Positions 19,461-31,736 of a DNA stretch of 32,000 bases are shown here, piece after piece. The DNA comes from Idiomarina loihiensis L2TR (lineage in GTDB: Bacteria; Pseudomonadota; Gammaproteobacteria; Enterobacterales; Alteromonadaceae): positions 1,920,001 through 1,952,000 of the forward strand of contig NC_006512.1 in the NCBI RefSeq assembly GCF_000008465.1. The letters are read 5' to 3'. Positions within the stretch are counted from its first letter, which is position 1. Each line of letters begins with the position of its first letter. Below the pieces are notes generated by a model that saw nothing but the letters and a program-made list of their open reading frames with translations, had not been told where the DNA came from and made no database searches. A program made the translations under genes and the position numbers.

Positions 19461-19471
19461 GCCGTTTGGCG
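19461..19471. repeat. Left copy of the 11-bp target-site duplication GCCGTTTGGCG of the IS4-family element
   Basis: Identical 11-mer at 20912-20922, immediately outside the other IS end. Confidence 0.85.
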
Positions 19472-19489
19472 TAATGCTTGTCAGTTAAG

Positions 19490-20815
19490 CTAACTGGCTG
19501 TCGGTTTAGAAGGCGGTCGCATCGGATAACGTTGCGGCCGCCTTTTTATTGAACGAGGGTAATATCGCTCTCGTCTTTCGGGCAGCACGAATGCGCTGGC
19601 CATTTCCATCATTTGCTCCATGACTTTGGGTATTTTTCCGGGTGAGATGTGTACCAGTATATGTAACTGCCCCACCAGATAATGAGAGGCTTGTTTGAAA
19701 CTTATTTGATTCGGCTCAATATGCTTCAGGCTATAGGCCATTTGCGCCATCATATACCGCAATAAGTTATAAGCGACCAGCATGCCCCACAACTCCTGCT
19801 CAACCAGGTCAGGCCGTTTGCTGCGCAGGGTCAGCTCACTCTTCAGCATATATTGTTTCATTTCACGGTAAGCCTGCTCGATTTCCCAGCGATGAGCATA
19901 TAAGTCAACGATATCGGCTTCAGGATAACGCATCGTGTCTGTCATTGAGGTTAATATCGCAACCTCTTTTTTAGCTATTTTCTTACACACTAAACGCGCC
20001 TGAACAGTGTCCGGTGCATTATCCCACTTCTTCTTAGCTTGTGGTGAGAGCCTAATTTCTACCAATTTGTCCGTGTCGCTAAAAGACTTCTTGACAGAGT
20101 ATTGTGCGCCTTTTCTGAGGGGAATAAGCCAATGGCGCTCCTCACCGGCACGATGCCATTGATCCAGTAAACCCAGCGCATAAAACCCTTTATCGAACAG
20201 CGTCAGTGAGTGGTCCGGCGTCTGTTCAATCAGCCGGGCTGCCAGGTCTACTTCACTAACCTCTGCAATACTGCCGAACTCCGTCGAGGTGACTAAATGG
20301 CTGCTTACTTCCATTTGATTCACCATCCGAATTTGAGGATAGTCGGATTCAGCCCGCTGGTTAGCCGTTCGCCCATAGGAAGCATCATTCTCCGGTGTGT
20401 CCGGTGTACGCCAGACGGTGCCGTCGACAGCCAGAACCGATAGATTATTCCAGTGAGAAAGCGGTAGTTTATCGAACCACAGCTCATTAGTGAGCTCAAA
20501 CATACGCTTCATAACATTAGCCCCCAAACGCTGACGAGCCTGAACTACGGCACTCGGCGCAACGTAAGGTCTTTTGCCGGGCAACATTAAATCAAGGTGT
20601 GAAACGAGCTGACGCATCGGCATTTCCCGAAATAATGCCATTCCTACGACCGCCCAGACCATAAAGTCCATTGGCAAACGGCGTTTGCGTACCGTTGTAA
20701 CGCCCGCGTCTTCAAGGCATTGTTCGATTAACTCAGGCTCCAGCAGATCCGGTAGTTTACTAAAATCATCCGGCGTAAACTCCTGCAGTTGGTCCAGTGC
20801 TTGACTCAGAAACAT
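19490..20815 (-). CDS. IS4 family DDE transposase
   Basis: 441 aa from the ATG at 20815 ([13 protein letters not shown]...). It has an N-terminal IS4-type domain, then LAVDGT (D), FDKGFY (D) and the YxxRWxIEqxyrEmK motif ([15 protein letters not shown]) of IS4-family DDE enzymes. The track start at 20875 would place a perfect 15-bp hairpin inside the coding sequence, so I prefer 20815. Confidence 0.9.
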
Positions 20816-20817
20816 AA

Positions 20818-20852
20818 AAAATCCGTAGTTAGAAAACCTAACTACGGATTTT
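20818..20852 (-). terminator. Perfect 15-bp hairpin plus U-run immediately upstream of the transposase start, inside the IS
   Basis: AAAATCCGTAGTTAG (20818-20832), a 5-nt loop, then CTAACTACGGATTTT (20838-20852). Read on the minus strand, the stem is followed by T6 and then the ATG. Confidence 0.45.
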
Positions 20853-20911
20853 GAAGTCTCTGCCGGATCGGTCAACCGATCGCTAAAATTTTTCTTAACT
20901 GATCGGCATTA

Positions 20912-20922
20912 GCCGTTTGGCG
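20912..20922. repeat. Right copy of the 11-bp target-site duplication GCCGTTTGGCG
   Basis: Identical to 19461-19471. Confidence 0.85.
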
Positions 20923-20934
20923 CCTTTTTTGTTA

Positions 20935-21930
20935 CTAAAATATATTATCCAACTGCTCACGATAACGGTCAAACGCTTCAAACTGCGGCATATGACCAAG
21001 GCCTTTCAGCTCATACAAATGACCATCAGGAATTTGCTCAACCACTATTTCGCCTAGTTGGTCGTAGCGGCCCAGCTGATAATCAACGCCTTCTTTTTTC
21101 CAGCCACGCCCGGGGCCTGTGGTGTCACGGGTTCCCAGAATTAAATGCGTTGGTACCGTTAATTGGTCAAACTCGTTAGACACATTGCCGGTAAAAATCA
21201 TGTCGTACGTCAACGCGTTATTCCAAGCTACCAGATCCCAGTCGCCGCCGTTTATCCACCCTTCGTGAATTTTAATTAACGCTTCGTAATCCTCTGACCA
21301 TTTACCGTCATAGTAATTTTTCTTCTGGTAGGCCCGGACTTTATCAATGGTTTTGCCCTGCTCGTTCTCATAAAAGAAGGCCGGATCTTTGTATTGCACA
21401 TAACGCAGATAGTCTTCCAGGCCTACCGGGTTAACCAACACCAGTTTCTCGACATTGTCGGCATGGTTCAGGGCATAGCGGGTAGCCAGCATGCCGCCCA
21501 TAGAATGACCCATCACAACAAGCTCATCTATTCCCAGCGACTCCACTAACCCTTTAGTGTTATCTGCCAGAGCTTCAAAAGAAAACTGATAATGCTCCGG
21601 TTTGGAGGACTTACCAAAACCGATTTGGTCCGGCATAAGTACCCCGTAGCCTTTTTCGTGAAGATAGTTAGCGGTCTTTTCCCAATAATCGGCGGCAAAA
21701 TTCTTGCCATGCAGCAGCAATACAGTCGGCTGGCCATCTTCTGCGGGTAAGTGCATGTAAGCCATTTCCAGCTTCTGCCGTTGGCTGTCGAATTCAAAGT
21801 TATGGACTTCAAAAGGGTAAGAATAACTACTCAAACGAGCATCGTATTTCGGAGCATGGTCGTCAGCAGAAGCCTGCGCTGTCAGCCCAAATAGAAAAGC
21901 GGTAAACACGGTATAAATCCAGGTACGCAT
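20935..21930 (-). CDS. Secreted alpha/beta-fold hydrolase
   Basis: HGKNF oxyanion region, GHSMGG nucleophile elbow, C-terminal GHMPQ histidine motif. The ATG at 21930 (AAGGA SD) gives the signal peptide MRTWIYTVFTAFLFGLTAQASA. The track start at 21978 is probably too long. Confidence 0.85.
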   Translation of the reverse strand: MRTWIYTVFTAFLFGLTAQASADDHAPKYDARLSSYSYPFEVHNFEFDSQRQKLEMAYMHLPAEDGQPTVLLLHGKNFAADYWEKTANYLHEKGYGVLMPDQIGFGKSSKPEHYQFSFEALADNTKGLVESLGIDELVVMGHSMGGMLATRYALNHADNVEKLVLVNPVGLEDYLRYVQYKDPAFFYENEQGKTIDKVRAYQKKNYYDGKWSEDYEALIKIHEGWINGGDWDLVAWNNALTYDMIFTGNVSNEFDQLTVPTHLILGTRDTTGPGRGWKKEGVDYQLGRYDQLGEIVVEQIPDGHLYELKGLGHMPQFEAFDRYREQLDNIF

Positions 21931-22053
21931 GTGCAAGTCCTTAGTTTGATTTTTAATCGTTACTATCTCGGTCAGCATTTAGACACGATAGTTCCATTTT
22001 GGAAAAGATACAAAGCTAACCGCAGACATCATTTAACCCACACAATCTCTTTT

Positions 22054-23472
22054 TTAGTCACTAGCTCTAGGACAGTTATGGCAGGTTGATTCATACTCCT
22101 TCCTGAATTTATCAGCAAAAGGAATCTCAAGTGTGTCCTCAAGCTCATTGTTAACCACCTGAAATTCGAGAAGTTCATCACGAGACAGCCAATGAATAGA
22201 ATTATGGGAGGCAGATTTAATCGAAAACCAGTAAAAATCATCCGCCCCAAGCATTTCATCGGTATAAATTCGGTGCAAATCATGAGCCGTGTCATGACGC
22301 GGAAAGTCCGTTGCTGGCTTACAATGAGATGCTTCAGCACTGTCGGAACACTGAGCCCACGAATGCACACCAACATGCGCCCCCTGGCCAACAGAGCGTT
22401 TCACTCCGGCCAAAAACAAGCTAACTCCCCCTGATGCCGCCACGCCATTGGAAATCAAATGCGTGTGAAGCCCTTTTTGGCGTATATACCGACCCAGTCT
22501 AAGCGTATCCCGATCATTGACAGAGCCGCCGTTAGCAGTGAACACAATTCGCTGAACGCCAGGGTGGGCTTCCAATGTTGATATCACCTTATCAGCCGTA
22601 TTACCGTCGAAGGTGCCGAGTAAATATAAGTTCGTATCAACCACAGCAACTGTTGTCTCACTATCTACCTCATTTTTTTCAGCTGTACGACTCGGTAATG
22701 CATCAATAGAAGTCAAAATCTCACGTGTGATTTTTTCGCGTTTCGCAAGATCAGCCATCCGGTTCGGTGTGTCGATGTTCAATGCGAAAAACACCGAACC
22801 TTCAGGCCATTCGACCCAGCCTACCCACCAGCCAAATCGACCTTCCCAACCGGTTTTTGCTCGCAAAATCCAGTTCCGCTCAGCTTCAACAATCATCAGA
22901 TCTTTTATTAGCCGCTGATGTTCTACCGCAAAAGGCAGTTCGTTACGGTAAAGCCTTTGCAAAAAGGCAATCTGTTCATTGGCAGAAATAGCCAACTGAC
23001 CATCCAGCCAATAATTACGGACATCGTCAGACGGGTCTGCATTTCCATAATCAATGCGCTTTAAGTAGCTTTTCGCTTTTTCGGCTCCAATATCCTCCGC
23101 AAACTGCTGATAAACCCAAACAGTTGAGTTACGTATAGCCGAGCGCAGATTCTGGTCACTATTATGTCCGGCAAAACTGCGTTCCACTCCATCCCACTTA
23201 AACACCTCGAACTCGTCCTGAACGACGCCAGCATCAAGGGCAAAAAGTGTGTGTGGGATCTTAAATGTTGAGGCTGGCGAAAACCGTTTTGCAGCTCTTT
23301 CTTTATCAAACACCAGAGTCGTCTGCTCGCTATCACGTCCATCGACTACGACAATGGTGCCCTCAGCCTCATATTTTTCGAATACGCTTCCCCAATCAGA
23401 GCGCTCCTGAGTCTCCGCACAAACGGGAACGGCAAAGCTCAATATAAAAAGCACGAGTAAGCTAATTTTCAT
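22054..23472 (-). CDS. Class D (OXA-like) beta-lactamase domain fused to a C-terminal ClpP/SppA-like (clan SK-like) domain; secreted
   Basis: 472 aa with signal peptide MKISLLVLFILSFAVPVCA. Residues about 20-260 carry all class D motifs at near-canonical spacing: S68-T-F-K71, S116-T-V118, Y142-G-N144, W155, K206-T-G208. Residues about 275-472 (FTANGGSVNDRDTLRLGRYIRQKG...ISNGVAASGGVSLFLAGVKRSVGQGAHVGVHSW) parallel the ClpP core INSPGGSV...GQAASMGAFLLAAGAKGKR...MIHQP, including Ser and His at equivalent spacing. One uninterrupted frame; GGAGA SD. Confidence 0.8.
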   Translation of the reverse strand: MKISLLVLFILSFAVPVCAETQERSDWGSVFEKYEAEGTIVVVDGRDSEQTTLVFDKERAAKRFSPASTFKIPHTLFALDAGVVQDEFEVFKWDGVERSFAGHNSDQNLRSAIRNSTVWVYQQFAEDIGAEKAKSYLKRIDYGNADPSDDVRNYWLDGQLAISANEQIAFLQRLYRNELPFAVEHQRLIKDLMIVEAERNWILRAKTGWEGRFGWWVGWVEWPEGSVFFALNIDTPNRMADLAKREKITREILTSIDALPSRTAEKNEVDSETTVAVVDTNLYLLGTFDGNTADKVISTLEAHPGVQRIVFTANGGSVNDRDTLRLGRYIRQKGLHTHLISNGVAASGGVSLFLAGVKRSVGQGAHVGVHSWAQCSDSAEASHCKPATDFPRHDTAHDLHRIYTDEMLGADDFYWFSIKSASHNSIHWLSRDELLEFQVVNNELEDTLEIPFADKFRKEYESTCHNCPRASD

Positions 23473-27206: not shown

Positions 27207-27439
27207 TGCCAACCCAGCTCTTTATATGTTTTTTTATCCTGCTCCGGGAAGCCACTTATGTATTCTCCCCAGCCCATATACTCGTAATATTTGGTCATAG
27301 CTTCAAAGTAAGATGAAGCTTCGCAGGTCCAGGCAAGCTTCGCTCCAGGCCCTAACAAGCCACGGGCACTGTCACCTCGAGGGCCGGAAAGACAAAACGT
27401 CTGTGAGTTTTCACCTTCAGTCCATAGTTCGTGTTTCAT
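27203..27439 (-). CDS. Hypothetical small cytoplasmic protein (78 aa)
   Basis: MKHELWTEGENSQTFCLSGPRGDSARGLL..AKLAWTCEASSYFEAMTKYYEYMGWGEY. ATGA overlaps occur at both ends, so it is translationally coupled to both neighbours. It resembles a widespread uncharacterised small-protein family as I recall it; no function is known to me. Confidence 0.55.
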   Translation of the reverse strand: MKHELWTEGENSQTFCLSGPRGDSARGLLGPGAKLAWTCEASSYFEAMTKYYEYMGWGEYISGFPEQDKKTYKELGWQ

Positions 27440-27786
27440 AACCCGTTCTTCAACTCAGCAACAAACTCATCGAGAGATCTACCCATATCGAAAACACCAA
27501 AGTCAAAATCAACGTAGTAGACAGTACCAACAGAATTTGTAAAAAGCACGTTATCGCCTAAGGTGACGGCAAAAGGGCTGAGTTCCATGCCATTCAGGTA
27601 GGGTTTGTAAGCATTAACTATCTGCTCTTTATCTTTCTGGGGAATCTGTTCAATAATTTCCAGATTTCTATCCGGTATTTTCTCGGCAAGCTCCCGATAC
27701 AAAGACACATCAATAAACTTTCCTACAATATCTGTGTTGTGAGCAGGGGGCGTCAACGGTATGTCCTCTGTATTGCATAGAGTCAA
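27436..27786 (-). CDS. Hypothetical protein, SUKH/SMI1-KNR4-like C-terminal pattern (possible immunity-type protein)
   Basis: 116 aa. The C-terminus ..FAVTLGDNVLFTNSVGTVYYVDFDFGVFDMGRSLDEFVAEL resembles the SUKH fold signature. The only available start is TTG at 27786, with no SD and an in-frame stop 3 codons upstream, so the N-terminus may be degraded. Confidence 0.45.
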   Translation of the reverse strand: MTLCNTEDIPLTPPAHNTDIVGKFIDVSLYRELAEKIPDRNLEIIEQIPQKDKEQIVNAYKPYLNGMELSPFAVTLGDNVLFTNSVGTVYYVDFDFGVFDMGRSLDEFVAELKNGL

Positions 27787-30314: not shown

Positions 30315-31736
30315 TTAACGATATCTTGTGATGAGCTCATTAATTTTTCTTCTGACAGGCGCTACAGTGTTAGATTGATTAGCTAAAATAACCACGATAA
30401 ATCCTTTATCTAAATATATGTCTAAACGCGCATCCACGCCTAAGTATGCGCCACCATGACCAACAATTCGATTATTCGGCTCGCCGCTAACAGAGAAACC
30501 ATAACCATACCAAAACGCGGAGTTGTAGTCGGTTTTTTCACTGTATGCTTCTTCAGTAAGCTCCTTGCTAAGTAGCTTATACTCAGTCAATGCTATAGCG
30601 AATTTATGTAAGTCCCCCACGGTAGAAAAACCACCGCCCGCTGGGCTGCCCTTAATTGCTCTGGTGTAAATGCTGTTAACCCAGTCATCACTGTAGCTTC
30701 GTTTCAAGTAGCCAGTAGCTAAGTTTTGATTTGATGAATCCAACTCGAAGCTACCTGTATTTATCATCCCAGCTTTGTTGTAAATGTTTTCTTGTACGTA
30801 GTCATAATAGGACGTACCCGTTACGCTTTCGATAACAAGCCCAAGCATTAGCATTCCTGAGTTACTATATCTATTCTGTGTACCCGGCGAAAATAGCAAT
30901 GGAGAGCTGGATACAAGTGGTTTATAGGCAGTTAGATCCCGGTAAGCTTCCTTGTTGCTTTTATTAAATTCGTCGTTAAAAAAGTTTCCAAAGCCTGAAG
31001 TATGCGTTAAGAGGTGACGAACCGTTATTGCTTCGACTTCTCCTTGTGGCAACCAACTGGTGTCTACGAAATCTATCAGTTTGTCTTCAAATTTAAGCTT
31101 GCCTTGTTCAATAAGTTGTAACGCCGCAACTGCTGTAAACATCTTGTTCATTGAACCCAAAGAAAATTTTGTCTCTACTTCATTTTTCACGCGCCACGGT
31201 CTATTCGCATAGCCAACAGCTTCCTGAAATAAGACATCTTTTCCTTCGGCAACTAAAACAACACCTGAAAAAGCTTCGTTTCGGGCTAACTTATCAATAA
31301 AGTTAGTGAGTTTCTGTTTTAGTTCTTGTGCAGTAATGGTTGTTAACTTTTGAGAATCAGATGTAACGTCTTCAAAGGTGAAATAATTGATCTTAAACGG
31401 AGATTTTCTTTCTCTATTTATCATTAAATTGTATTCAAGGTCATTGTTGCTTGAAATTACACGAACGCGCTCATTACCATTTTCCGCGGAAAGGTGCTTC
31501 TGCACCTCAAGTTGCCCAAAGGTATTTTGCTGATTTAGTAAAACGCCAACATGTGCATCAATCCCATACCTTTCAATCTGACTATTTGACATGTTTTTCT
31601 GTAAGTATTTAATAACCTCTGTTCGTGAGCCTTCGTTAAAAACTCCCACAAAGGATTTAGCAAACTTTTCATCGGCAAATGCTAATTTGGAAAAATAGAC
31701 AGGTATTAATAATAGAAGTATGTATTTAGTTCGCAT
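30315..31736 (-). CDS. Beta-lactamase-family serine hydrolase (class C / PBP4*-EstB-like) with an N-terminal extra domain; secreted
   Basis: 473 aa with signal peptide MRTKYILLLLIPVYFSKLAFA. It has an S-x-x-K motif (FSLGSMNKMF), a Y-x-N motif (RYSNSG) and a GHGG motif in place of KTG. About 150 aa lie N-terminal to the catalytic domain. AGGA SD. Confidence 0.8.
   Translation of the reverse strand: MRTKYILLLLIPVYFSKLAFADEKFAKSFVGVFNEGSRTEVIKYLQKNMSNSQIERYGIDAHVGVLLNQQNTFGQLEVQKHLSAENGNERVRVISSNNDLEYNLMINRERKSPFKINYFTFEDVTSDSQKLTTITAQELKQKLTNFIDKLARNEAFSGVVLVAEGKDVLFQEAVGYANRPWRVKNEVETKFSLGSMNKMFTAVAALQLIEQGKLKFEDKLIDFVDTSWLPQGEVEAITVRHLLTHTSGFGNFFNDEFNKSNKEAYRDLTAYKPLVSSSPLLFSPGTQNRYSNSGMLMLGLVIESVTGTSYYDYVQENIYNKAGMINTGSFELDSSNQNLATGYLKRSYSDDWVNSIYTRAIKGSPAGGGFSTVGDLHKFAIALTEYKLLSKELTEEAYSEKTDYNSAFWYGYGFSVSGEPNNRIVGHGGAYLGVDARLDIYLDKGFIVVILANQSNTVAPVRRKINELITRYR

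What the first reader, a model, noticed from the sequence alone, without database searches (positions are those of the whole stretch)
22054..23472. Secreted class D (OXA-like) beta-lactamase fused in-frame to a ClpP/SppA-like serine-protease-fold domain
The N-terminal ~260 aa form a complete class D beta-lactamase module: STFK, STV, YGN, the tryptophan that stabilises the carbamylated lysine, and KTG, all at near-canonical spacing.

The ORF then continues for ~200 more residues instead of stopping. The core of that extension (FTANGGSV...NGVAASGGVSLFLAGVKR-x10-H) lines up with the ClpP/clan SK core (NSPGGSV...GQAASMGAFLLAAGAKGKR-x10-H). The candidate nucleophile is Ser347 and the candidate base is His370.

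I know of no described OXA enzyme with this architecture. The only familiar pairing of a class-D-like penicillin-binding domain with a protease is BlaR1/MecR1, which is built differently: a membrane zinc protease with a C-terminal sensor.

The protein could be one of three things:
- a beta-lactam-responsive periplasmic protease
- a bifunctional cell-wall or peptide hydrolase
- a lactamase tethered to an oligomerisation scaffold

It sits just downstream of the IS4 insertion, next to a secreted alpha/beta hydrolase transcribed in the same direction.
Basis: partly seen in the sequence, partly recalled or inferred. Interest (0 to 1): 0.72.

Follow-up and report, generated by a model that had tools for sequence, protein, structure and literature searches.

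The report
OXA beta-lactamase fused to ClpP-fold hydrolase
In one lineage of the marine bacterium Idiomarina loihiensis, the chromosomal OXA-type beta-lactamase gene has recently captured the body of an uncharacterised secreted ClpP-fold enzyme, giving a real two-domain protein; nothing shows that the two halves work together.

Summary
Window 22054..23472 is one 472-aa ORF, but on the minus strand.

- **N-terminal half.** Residues 1-266 are a complete class D beta-lactamase with all motifs. It is 72.7% identical to OXA-2-type crystal structures.
- **C-terminal half.** Residues ~273-467 fold confidently (pLDDT 93) into a ClpP/crotonase fold. Ser347 and His370 align with ClpP's catalytic Ser and His. 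They are conserved in 148 and 147 of 149 family representatives. ClpP's Asp has no equivalent.
- **The domain's family.** It is a large family (5,686 cluster representatives) of secreted or lipoprotein-type proteins. Neither Pfam nor NCBIfam has a model for it.
- **The fusion is real but narrow.** The identical protein sits on 15 independent contigs, and a diverged 476-aa version on 5 more. Both halves are under purifying selection (dN/dS 0.08 and 0.09). No other protein cluster among 5.8 billion has this architecture.
- **Origin.** Close relatives carry a 267- or 271-aa lactamase. The fusion came from a ~677-bp insertion at the stop codon plus a one-base shorter A-run.
- **Coupling.** No evidence links the two activities, and stand-alone homologues never neighbour OXA genes.

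Most likely this is an opportunistic fusion of two independently acting periplasmic hydrolases. Interest is moderate.

The parts
22054..23472 (-). Whole fused ORF, 472 aa plus stop. Identical to Idiomarina loihiensis AAV82640.1 (L2-TR, UniProt Q5QWM3) and AGM36681.1 (GSL 199).
23416..23472 (-). N-terminal hydrophobic signal sequence MKISLLVLFILSFAVPVCA (aa 1-19), judged by inspection. A GGAG Shine-Dalgarno lies 7 nt upstream of the ATG.
   Evidence: Alignment to OXA-46 precursor residues 11-265.
22687..23415 (-). Class D (OXA) beta-lactamase domain, aa 20-262. Motifs: STFK 23260-23271, STV 23119-23127, YGN 23041-23049, KTG 22849-22857.
   Evidence: NF012161 scores 294.8 bits against a cut-off of 250. 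72.7% identity (176/242, ungapped) to PDB 6xj3; OXA-2 (1k38) scores nearly the same. Coordinates.
22654..22698 (-). Inter-domain linker LPSRTAEKNEVDSET (aa 259-273). It contains the fusion junction: codon N267 (22672-22674) replaces the K-stop of unfused strains.
   Evidence: Homology with the unfused strain ends at window 22672. pLDDT is below 50 for residues 259-273 in the full-length model.
22072..22656 (-). ClpP/crotonase-fold domain, aa 273-467, of an unmodelled secreted family. Key residues: GGS 22522-22530, Ser347 22432-22434, His370 22363-22365, His397 22282-22284, His427 22192-22194. Cys375 and Cys384 flank a loop (22321-22350). CHNC motif at 22072-22083.
22003..22671 (-). DNA absent from unfused relatives. 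It is the acquired segment encoding the signal-less mature domain. Its last 66 bp (22003-22068; codons RASD, the stop and 51 bp) are unique to this lineage and mark a later ~3-kb deletion.
20935..21978 (-). Downstream alpha/beta hydrolase gene (347 aa) on the same strand, 75 bp after the fused stop. The simple scan found no terminator-like site between them.

Best explanation
This is a genuine, evolutionarily recent gene fusion confined to one Idiomarina loihiensis lineage.

The species' intrinsic periplasmic class D beta-lactamase is an OXA-2 relative and is normally 267 aa. Its stop codon was lost when a ~677-bp fragment inserted at its extreme 3' end. That fragment encodes the mature part, without the signal peptide, of a horizontally acquired secreted ClpP-fold protein. 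A one-base shorter A-run (GAAAAGAAAT becoming GAAAA[G/A]AAT) puts the two frames in register. A later ~3-kb deletion removed four downstream genes and rewrote the last codons, giving the 472-aa form in this window.

The lactamase's promoter, ribosome-binding site and signal sequence now express and export both domains, joined by a flexible ~15-residue linker.

Inferred mechanism: the two halves act independently in the periplasm. The N-terminal half hydrolyses beta-lactams through Ser68 and carbamylated Lys71. The C-terminal half is a Ser347/His370 hydrolase, most likely a peptidase or esterase, of an uncharacterised extracytoplasmic family. The fusion persists because it is the only way this signal-less copy can be made and exported.

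Shown: the architecture, the fold, residue conservation, the origin and purifying selection. Inferred: catalytic competence, substrate class and independence of the two activities.
For: - **Lactamase half.** establish its identity and motifs.
- **Fold.** AF2 gives pLDDT 93.3 and pTM 0.89. Foldseek PDB hits are dominated by ClpP, with MenB-type crotonase-fold enzymes among them (rank 1 is a MenB); E is about 1e-6 and TM 0.5-0.56.
- **Sequence link to ClpP.** The family profile's best PDB hits are ClpP at E 0.02-0.05, with Ser and His in register. hhalign against E. coli ClpP pairs S347 with S97 and H370 with H122. CLP_protease is the Pfam family most often hit by relatives: 7 of 46, best E 5.4e-5.
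- **Residue conservation in 149 representatives.** S347 148, H370 147, G316 148, S317 143, R359 148, H397 148, Y414 147.
- **Local structure.** The model places Ser347 between a strand (aa 336-346) and a helix (aa 348-354), a nucleophile elbow. His370 follows a strand.
- **Extracytoplasmic family.** Stand-alone homologues are 220-240 aa with their own signal or lipoprotein leaders.
- **Reality of the fusion.** It is on 15 plus 5 independent contigs.
- **Selection.** Window versus L021 gives dN/dS 0.076 for the OXA half (41 synonymous, 13 nonsynonymous) and 0.093 for the C-domain (20 synonymous, 7 nonsynonymous). The binomial P is 2e-8.
- **Origin.** Unfused relatives end AEKK* (267 aa) or AEKNSQRR* (271 aa). 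The 271-aa strain's flanks are 99.5% identical to the window's. In the 476-aa lineage a second copy of the OXA 3' end (TGAAAAGATATCGTCAACG) lies 46 bp after the fused stop, so a ~12-bp direct duplication flanks the insert.
- **Restricted distribution.** Only the query's own 90% cluster covers the full length; every other listed hit covers 51-58%. None of 15 genome loci is fused.
- **No linkage elsewhere.** No OXA gene lies near any of 17 stand-alone loci.
Against: - No activity was measured for either half.
- Sequence similarity to ClpP is sub-threshold for this protein.
- ClpP's Asp171 aligns with hydrophobic Ile426, so the catalytic machinery is incomplete by ClpP standards. It could be a dyad, or could use His427 (His in 113 and Tyr in 32 of 149).
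- I had no model coordinates, so the Ser347-His370 distance could not be checked.
- The full-length model was poor (pLDDT 59, shallow OXA alignment). Domain packing, or its absence, is therefore unknown.
- Retention of the fusion with strong constraint on both halves is also what genuine functional coupling would produce.
- Whether the protein stays intact or is cleaved at the linker is unknown.
Confidence: 0.62

Rival explanations
1. Functional coupling. The fusion creates a new bifunctional periplasmic enzyme. The penicillin-binding/lactamase domain and the ClpP-fold hydrolase would cooperate. Examples: a beta-lactam-responsive protease, a two-step cell-wall-peptide or beta-lactam-product hydrolase, or a lactamase delivered to a particular substrate or complex.
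For: Both halves are under equally strong purifying selection in the fused state. The fusion has persisted long enough to accumulate dS 0.16-0.28 between two lineages. The C-domain family is repeatedly fused to other secreted hydrolases: Abhydrolase_3, Peptidase_M28. That suggests it often works next to a second catalytic domain. Invariant Arg331 and Arg359 could bind a carboxylate such as a peptide C-terminus.
Against: The architecture exists in a single 90% cluster only. A strain with 99.5%-identical flanks lacks the fusion, so it is a dispensable polymorphism. No OXA gene was found within about 3-5 kb of the stand-alone homologue in any of 17 loci. The junction looks like an accidental insertion plus an A-run slip. 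The linker is predicted to be disordered.
Confidence: 0.14
2. Passenger or scaffold. The C-terminal domain is catalytically irrelevant here. It would be a tolerated appendage, or an oligomerisation or stability module for the lactamase.
For: ClpP-fold proteins commonly oligomerise (established knowledge). The catalytic Asp of ClpP is missing. The fusion is polymorphic.
Against: dN/dS of 0.093 in the C-domain rejects neutrality, P = 2e-8. Every family-invariant polar residue is retained in the fused copy: S317, D320, R331, T337, S347, R359, H370, H397, Y403, Y414. A scaffold would not need a near-invariant Ser/His pair at the ClpP catalytic positions.
Confidence: 0.12
3. Conflict-system cassette. 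The C-terminal domain is a swapped-in toxin or effector module. The SUKH/SMI1_KNR4 gene that follows it in the 476-aa lineage would be its immunity protein, as in polymorphic toxin loci.
For: In loci L021-L024 the fused gene is followed directly by a SMI1_KNR4/SUKH gene. The region also holds RhsPI- and SUKH-annotated small genes. The site is hypervariable, with four structural states.
Against: Stand-alone homologues carry ordinary signal or lipoprotein leaders and have no SUKH neighbour (tblastn empty). The window's lineage lost the SUKH gene but keeps an intact, constrained C-domain. No toxin-trafficking domain is present. The SUKH segment is a separate indel on the other side of a shared intergenic repeat.
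Confidence: 0.03
4. Artefact. A sequencing or assembly error, or a frameshift, wrongly joins two genes.
For: The junction lies in an A-run, where length errors are common.
Against: Identical fused ORFs occur in two complete genomes and many independent metagenome assemblies from different technologies. A diverged lineage keeps the frame. The downstream part has no start codon or signal peptide of its own.
Confidence: 0.01

Closest known systems
OXA-2 / OXA-46 group class D beta-lactamases (PDB 1k38, 6xj3, 3if6)
   Same: The N-terminal 262 residues align without gaps at 72.7% identity, with all class D motifs and a signal sequence. The protein passes NCBIfam's general class D model.
   Different: It scores below the OXA-2 family cut-off (432 against 590 bits). 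It is chromosomal and intrinsic to Idiomarina, not integron-borne. It carries a 205-residue C-terminal extension that no described OXA has.
ClpP (MEROPS S14, Pfam PF00574)
   Same: Same fold. The GGS oxyanion-loop motif, the strand-Ser-helix nucleophile elbow and the strand-end His are in the same register.
   Different: No Pfam hit for this protein. Asp171 is replaced by Ile426. The protein is exported rather than cytoplasmic, so no AAA+ partner is possible. It has extra conserved residues (R331, R359, H397, Y403, Y414) and a disulfide-type Cys pair. Oligomeric state is unknown.
Membrane or periplasm-facing ClpP-fold peptidases: SppA (S49), NfeD, SDH-type proteinases
   Same: ClpP-fold serine hydrolases that act outside the cytoplasm (own knowledge). 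One family member each gives a faint hit to SDH_protease and NfeD1b_N.
   Different: SppA and NfeD use a Ser-Lys dyad (own knowledge), whereas this family conserves Ser-His. No significant hit to PF01343, PF01972 or PF25145.
BlaR1 / MecR1
   Same: The only well-known pairing of a class-D-like penicillin-binding domain with a protease. The sensor part of NF000326 aligns at 171.6 bits.
   Different: The score is below the cut-off of 400, and only the sensor region (profile positions 351-581) aligns. Domain order is opposite. There is no membrane M56 zinc-protease domain and no transmembrane segments beyond the signal sequence.
Natural bifunctional beta-lactamase fusions such as LRA-13 (class C plus class D, Alaskan soil metagenome; recalled from memory, not checked here)
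   Same: A class D domain naturally fused to a second serine-hydrolase domain in one exported polypeptide.
   Different: There the partner is another beta-lactamase. Here it is a ClpP-fold domain of unknown substrate.

Membership tests
Class D beta-lactamase | Score above the curated family HMM cut-off (NCBIfam NF012161 bla_class_D_main, 250 bits) | tested here: met
   294.8 bits over residues 27-257. Pfam PF00905 E = 2.8e-45.
Class D beta-lactamase | Active-site motifs S-x-x-K, S-x-V, Y-G-N, K-T-G and the Trp that stabilises the carbamylated Lys | tested here: met
   STFK 68, STV 116, YGN 142, W155, KTG 206. All are aligned identically with OXA-2-type structures.
Class D beta-lactamase | Hydrolysis of beta-lactams | not testable with these tools
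   Needs nitrocefin or MIC assays.
OXA-2 family (NF000267) | Score at or above the family cut-off of 590 bits | tested here: not met
   432.3 bits. 72.7% identity to the closest solved structure. It is a related chromosomal lineage, not an OXA-2 allele.
ClpP (S14, PF00574) | ClpP/crotonase alpha/beta fold | tested here: met
   AF2 pLDDT 93.3. Foldseek PDB hits are dominated by ClpP, with MenB (rank 1) among them; probability 1.0, E about 1e-6, TM 0.5-0.56.
ClpP (S14, PF00574) | Pfam CLP_protease gathering threshold | tested here: not met
   No hit at E up to 1 for this protein. Hits at E up to 10, all weak (best 5.4e-5), in 7 of 46 relatives.
ClpP (S14, PF00574) | Catalytic Ser and His at the conserved positions | tested here: met
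   S347 aligns with S97 and H370 with H122. Conserved in 148 and 147 of 149 representatives.
ClpP (S14, PF00574) | Catalytic Asp (Asp171) completing the triad | tested here: not met
   With F187 aligned to W428, Asp171 falls on Ile426. That position is hydrophobic (I, M, V or L) in nearly all of the family.
ClpP (S14, PF00574) | Cytoplasmic tetradecamer that docks an AAA+ unfoldase | not testable with these tools
   Signal-sequence-dependent export argues against an ATPase partner. Oligomeric state was not predicted.
SppA / S49 | Pfam Peptidase_S49 match and a Ser-Lys dyad | tested here: not met
   PF01343 is not among the families listed for the protein or its relatives (only the top 25 of 29 families are shown). 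The conserved partner residue is His, not Lys.
BlaR1 / MecR1 sensor-transducer | N-terminal membrane M56 zinc-protease domain followed by a C-terminal sensor; NF000326 cut-off of 400 bits | tested here: not met
   171.6 bits, with only profile positions 351-581 aligned. No Peptidase_M56 hit.
Polymorphic toxin with SUKH immunity | C-terminal toxin domain followed directly by a cognate immunity gene, conserved across homologues | tested here: not met
   A SUKH gene follows only in L021-L024. It is absent from the window and from 17 stand-alone loci.

The most novel reading that the evidence does not exclude
The C-terminal domain represents a new, very large family of extracytoplasmic Ser/His hydrolases built on the ClpP fold. 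It would have a non-canonical third residue and a conserved Arg/His/Tyr pocket. Its natural substrates would be cell-envelope peptides or acyl esters. In Idiomarina its fusion to an OXA enzyme would create a two-active-site protein whose halves act on related substrates, for example peptidoglycan stem peptides and beta-lactam mimics of D-Ala-D-Ala.
Probability: 0.1. Interest if true: 0.75.

Novelty: new variant of a known kind. Interest (0 to 1): 0.45.

Why it matters
**A fusion caught in the act.** All intermediate states still segregate in one species: unfused 267 aa, frame-shifted 271 aa, fused 476 aa, and fused-and-trimmed 472 aa. One natural strain pair with 99.5%-identical flanks differs by the fusion. 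That pair allows a direct test of what a new domain does to a resistance enzyme.

**An unstudied enzyme family.** The partner domain belongs to a large family of exported ClpP-fold proteins (5,686 cluster representatives) with a near-invariant Ser/His pair. It has no Pfam or NCBIfam model and no studied member. The fused, easily assayed lactamase gives a convenient handle for expressing and exporting one member.

**A reservoir of OXA-2 relatives.** For resistance surveillance, Idiomarinaceae and their neighbours carry chromosomal enzymes about 65-73% identical to the integron-borne OXA-2 group.

**Limits.** The fusion is narrow and polymorphic and probably has no clinical relevance. No new mechanism has been demonstrated.

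Tried and rejected
- **Full-length structure.** The first combined alignment (A3) misaligned the C-domain homologues onto the OXA half. The repaired alignment (A4) gave a poor model: pLDDT 59, with the OXA half unresolved because only 9 OXA sequences were included. It says nothing about domain packing beyond a disordered linker.
- **Catalytic geometry.** No model coordinates are returned, so Ser-His geometry could not be measured.
- **Gene neighbourhoods.** Stand-alone homologues sit next to a carboxypeptidase-regulatory-like protein and an M28 peptidase in Marinicella, an amidohydrolase and a PhzF-family protein in Idiomarina sp., and proteins I judged by eye (not scanned) to be HipA-like and GFA-like in Pseudidiomarina. 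These show no conserved operon, so they give no functional inference.
- **Toxin/immunity idea.** It was prompted by the SUKH gene in L021 and rejected (the window lineage lacks the gene).
- **IS4 involvement.** Rejected, because the element is missing from 100%-identical contigs.
- **Literature.** Searches on Idiomarina with OXA or class D, ClpP-like periplasmic fusions, COG3904, and OXA C-terminal extensions found nothing on this protein or family.
- **Curated models.** Pfam and NCBIfam scans of this protein and of 20-56 relatives found no model for the domain.
Full report
**1. The observation**

Window 22054..23472 holds one uninterrupted ORF of 472 codons plus a stop, on the minus strand.

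The protein is identical to Idiomarina loihiensis AAV82640.1 (strain L2-TR, UniProt Q5QWM3) and AGM36681.1 (strain GSL 199). The window is 100% identical over 9,419 bp to GSL 199 CP005964.1.

- STFK 68-71, STV 116-118, YGN 142-144, W155, KTG 206-208
- GGS 315-317, ASGG 346-349 (Ser347), GVH 368-370 (His370)

A GGAG ribosome-binding site precedes the ATG. The first 19 residues form a hydrophobic signal-type sequence.

**2. The N-terminal half**

- Pfam Transpeptidase matches residues 38-253 at E = 2.8e-45.
- NCBIfam's general class D model scores 294.8 bits against a cut-off of 250.
- The best specific family is OXA-2, at 432 bits. That is below its 590-bit cut-off.
- Against solved structures, the best hits are 6xj3, OXA-2 (1k38) and OXA-46 (3if6). 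The alignment to 6xj3 is ungapped, with 176 of 242 residues identical (72.7%).

This half is therefore a complete class D beta-lactamase of a chromosomal lineage related to the OXA-2 group, but not within it.

**3. The C-terminal half**

*No curated model.* Residues 265-472 match nothing in Pfam or NCBIfam.

*Homologues.* Homology search finds 51 relatives. Nearly all are stand-alone proteins of about 220-240 aa with their own hydrophobic or lipoprotein-type leaders. The closest is only 66% identical.

*Family size.* A profile search of 1.84 billion cluster representatives finds:

| E-value threshold | Proteins found |
|---|---|
| 1e-3 | 5,686 |
| 1e-10 | 1,015 |
| 1e-30 | 244 |

*Partners.* Many relatives are multidomain. 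The domain appears next to Abhydrolase_3 plus EF-hands (sometimes with RTX repeats), Peptidase_M28, DUF4377, or unannotated N-terminal regions. No Pfam or NCBIfam model covers the domain in any of them.

*Fold.* An AlphaFold2 model built on 46 sequences is confident: pLDDT 93.3, pTM 0.89. Foldseek against the PDB returns over a thousand hits. The top of the list is mostly ClpP from many species, alongside MenB-type crotonase-fold enzymes, one of which ranks first. These hits have probability 1.0, E about 1e-6, TM 0.5-0.56 and 13-21% identity.

*Sequence-level signal.* It is weak but consistent.
- Profile searches against PDB sequences put ClpP first, at E 0.02-0.05.
- CLP_protease is the Pfam family most often touched by relatives: 7 of 46, best E 5.4e-5.
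- All alignments, including hhalign against E. coli ClpP, pair the GGS loop with ClpP's PGG(S/V) loop. They pair Ser347 with Ser97 and His370 with His122.
- In the model, Ser347 sits between a strand and a helix, and His370 sits at the end of a strand. This is the ClpP arrangement.

*Conservation across 149 diverse representatives.*

| Residue | Conserved in |
|---|---|
| Ser347 | 148 |
| His370 | 147 |
| Gly316 | 148 |
| Ser317 | 143 |
| Asp320 | 137 |
| Arg331 | 130 |
| Thr337 | 144 |
| Arg359 | 148 |
| His397 | 148 |
| Tyr403 | 138 |
| Tyr414 | 147 |
| Glu433 | 135 |

*The missing Asp.* ClpP's Asp171 has no counterpart. With the F187/W428 register it falls on Ile426, a position that is hydrophobic in nearly all of the family. 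The adjacent His427 is His in 113 and Tyr in 32 of 149.

*Conclusion for this half.* The domain is a ClpP-fold, probably catalytic Ser/His module of a distinct, uncharacterised extracytoplasmic family. It is not a ClpP or an SppA.

**4. Is the fusion real, and how common is it?**

- The identical 472-aa protein is encoded on 15 contigs from NCBI genomes and from JGI, ENA and Logan metagenomes.
- A diverged 476-aa fused variant is on 5 further contigs.
- Between the two fused lineages, the OXA half has 41 synonymous and 13 nonsynonymous differences (dN/dS 0.076).
- The C-domain has 20 synonymous and 7 nonsynonymous differences (dN/dS 0.093). That departs from neutrality at P = 2e-8.

Artefact and decaying passenger are therefore both excluded.

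The fusion is nonetheless very narrow. In a search of 5.8 billion clusters, only the query's own 90% cluster spans the full length. Every other listed hit covers 51-58% of the query. A scan of 185,579 species-representative genomes found 15 loci with the domain, all stand-alone. They come from Pseudidiomarina, Idiomarina, Marinicella, Luteimonas, Lysobacter, Thalassolituus and myxobacterial MAGs. None of 17 stand-alone loci has an OXA gene nearby.

**5. How the fusion arose**

Four states of the same chromosomal spot, between the OXA gene and an alpha/beta-hydrolase gene, coexist in I. loihiensis-like genomes.

| State | OXA product | What follows | Loci |
|---|---|---|---|
| A | 267 aa, ending AEKK* | three-gene cassette (124 aa, DUF6892, Peptidase_S26) | L001-L003 |
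| B | fused, 476 aa | a SUKH/SMI1_KNR4 gene, then the same cassette | L021-L024 |
| C | fused, 472 aa | the hydrolase gene directly | this window, L025-L032 |
| D | 271 aa, ending AEKNSQRR* | a remnant of the cassette | L033, L034 |

State D's flanks are 99.5% identical to state C's.

The junction sequences are:
- A: GCTGAAAAGAAATAGTCAACG
- D: GCTGAAAAAAATAGTCAACG
- B: GCTGAAAAGAATGAGGTAGAG
- C: GCTGAAAAAAATGAGGTAGAT

In B, 46 bp after the fused stop, the OXA 3' end recurs as TGAAAAGATATCGTCAACGTCG. A ~677-bp insert is thus bracketed by a ~12-bp direct duplication.

The insert starts a few residues before the first strand of the mature domain. It lacks a start codon and a signal peptide.

Insertion into the A-type sequence would have recreated a stop (AAA TGA). 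The one-base shorter A-run, shared by B, C and D, is what joins the frames. Whether the slip preceded or followed the insertion cannot be resolved.

State C then arose by a ~3-kb deletion. It removed the SUKH gene and the cassette, and replaced the last eight codons with RASD-stop.

The 267-aa form is also carried by Idiomarina strains labelled I. abyssalis, I. rhizosphaerae and Idiomarina sp. 017G within the same 90% cluster. Most Aliidiomarina and other OXA homologues are 261-275 aa and cover only the OXA part of the query. The unfused form is therefore ancestral.

The nearest donor-like sequence is only 66% identical, and no I. loihiensis-labelled stand-alone copy appeared among the hits. 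The fused copy is therefore probably the only family member in this genome. This last point is an inference.

**6. Most likely mechanism**

*Shown:*
- one exported polypeptide with two intact, selectively constrained domains
- a linker (aa 259-273) predicted to be disordered

*Inferred:*
- The halves act independently in the periplasm.
- The lactamase works through Ser68 and carbamyl-Lys71.
- The C-domain is a Ser347/His370 hydrolase (peptidase or esterase) that now depends on the lactamase's expression and export signals.

I give this reading about 0.62.

Genuine coupling is not excluded; I give it about 0.14. The reasons are that both halves are equally constrained and that the family often sits beside other hydrolase domains. 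However, the fusion is polymorphic, confined to a single lineage, and has an accidental-looking junction, all of which argue against an evolved two-site machine.

The other readings:
- A non-catalytic scaffold (about 0.12) fits poorly with the near-invariant Ser/His pair and the low dN/dS.
- A toxin/immunity reading (about 0.03) was prompted by the SUKH neighbour in state B. It fails because stand-alone homologues lack such neighbours, and because state C lost the SUKH gene without losing the domain.
- An assembly artefact (about 0.01) is excluded by the independent contigs.

**7. Comparison with known systems**

- **Closest for the N-terminal half:** OXA-2 and OXA-46.
- **Closest for the C-terminal half:** ClpP. 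The fold and the Ser/His register match. The Pfam threshold, the Asp, the cellular compartment and an ATPase partnership do not match or cannot apply.
- **SppA and NfeD** are extracytoplasmic ClpP-fold peptidases but use Ser-Lys (own knowledge). No significant hit to them was found.
- **BlaR1/MecR1** is built differently. Only its sensor region aligns, at 171.6 bits against a cut-off of 400.
- **Natural bifunctional lactamase fusions** such as LRA-13 (class C plus class D; recalled from memory) are the nearest architectural precedent.
- **Literature:** no paper in the searchable library describes this protein or family. IMG's automatic annotation already names both halves.

**8. Verdict**

The thing is a new variant of a known kind: an OXA enzyme with an unprecedented, recently acquired ClpP-fold partner from an unstudied family. 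It is narrow in distribution and has no demonstrated new mechanism.

Its main value is twofold. It is a traceable example of a gene fusion in progress, and it is an entry point to a large unmodelled family of exported Ser/His proteins. Interest 0.45.

**9. What failed**

- The full-length model was uninformative.
- No coordinates were available for active-site geometry.
- Neighbourhood analysis of stand-alone homologues gave no functional clue.

Noticed in passing
window 19472-20911 (target duplications at 19461-19471 and 20912-20922): An IS4-family element (transposase ORF 19490-20875, minus strand) with an 11-bp target-site duplication GCCGTTTGGCG and imperfect terminal inverted repeats TAATGC..TCAGTTAAG. 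It is absent from metagenome contigs that are otherwise 100% identical to the window, so it is a very recent insertion in the GSL 199-type genome that the window matches. It is unrelated to the fusion.
   Followed up: yes
window 22000-22671; loci L002 4803-7268, L021 4801-8418, L033 4802-4920: The spot between the OXA gene and the alpha/beta-hydrolase gene is hypervariable, with four structural states among near-identical genomes. Its variable cargo includes a SUKH/SMI1_KNR4 gene, a DUF6892 gene and a Peptidase_S26-like gene. A shared ~42-bp intergenic repeat (TCAACGTCGTTGAA.TGGCG...AAGAAATG) precedes different cassette genes.
   Followed up: partly
window 27436-27786 (-) and neighbouring small ORFs; L021 1-8: Small genes upstream of the DUF748/AsmA-like gene are labelled RhsPI and SUKH_5/SMI1_KNR4 in precomputed annotations. 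These are immunity-protein-like orphans with no visible toxin gene. My own Pfam scan of 27436-27786 found nothing at E up to 0.001, so the label is unconfirmed.
   Followed up: partly
window 30315-31736 (-): A second serine beta-lactamase-fold protein (Pfam PF00144, E = 4.9e-52, 473 aa with about 145 extra N-terminal residues) lies 7 kb from the OXA fusion. Whether it is a class C enzyme, an esterase or a DD-peptidase was not examined.
   Followed up: no
proteins P0067-P0215; examples P0089, P0169, P0116, P0129: The ClpP-fold domain defines a large family (5,686 cluster representatives at E up to 1e-3) with no Pfam-A or NCBIfam model. Members are mostly exported or lipoproteins. The domain recurs next to Abhydrolase_3 plus EF-hand (with or without RTX), Peptidase_M28, DUF4377 and unannotated N-terminal domains. 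In Marinicella (L004) a stand-alone member sits directly upstream of an M28 peptidase gene, which echoes the M28 fusion.
   Followed up: partly
proteins P0216-P0334: Chromosomal class D enzymes 65-78% identical to this OXA core, and so close to the integron-borne OXA-2 group, are widespread. They occur in Aliidiomarina, Halopseudomonas, Natronospira, Thauera, Halomonas and many metagenomes. This suggests a marine or saline gammaproteobacterial reservoir for that group.
   Followed up: no
L020 732-1021 (Idiomarina fontislapidosi CECT 5859): Only a partial match to the C-domain family (query residues 47-204 in a 290-nt segment, 57% identity). It may be a degraded or fragmentary copy in another Idiomarina species.
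   Followed up: no
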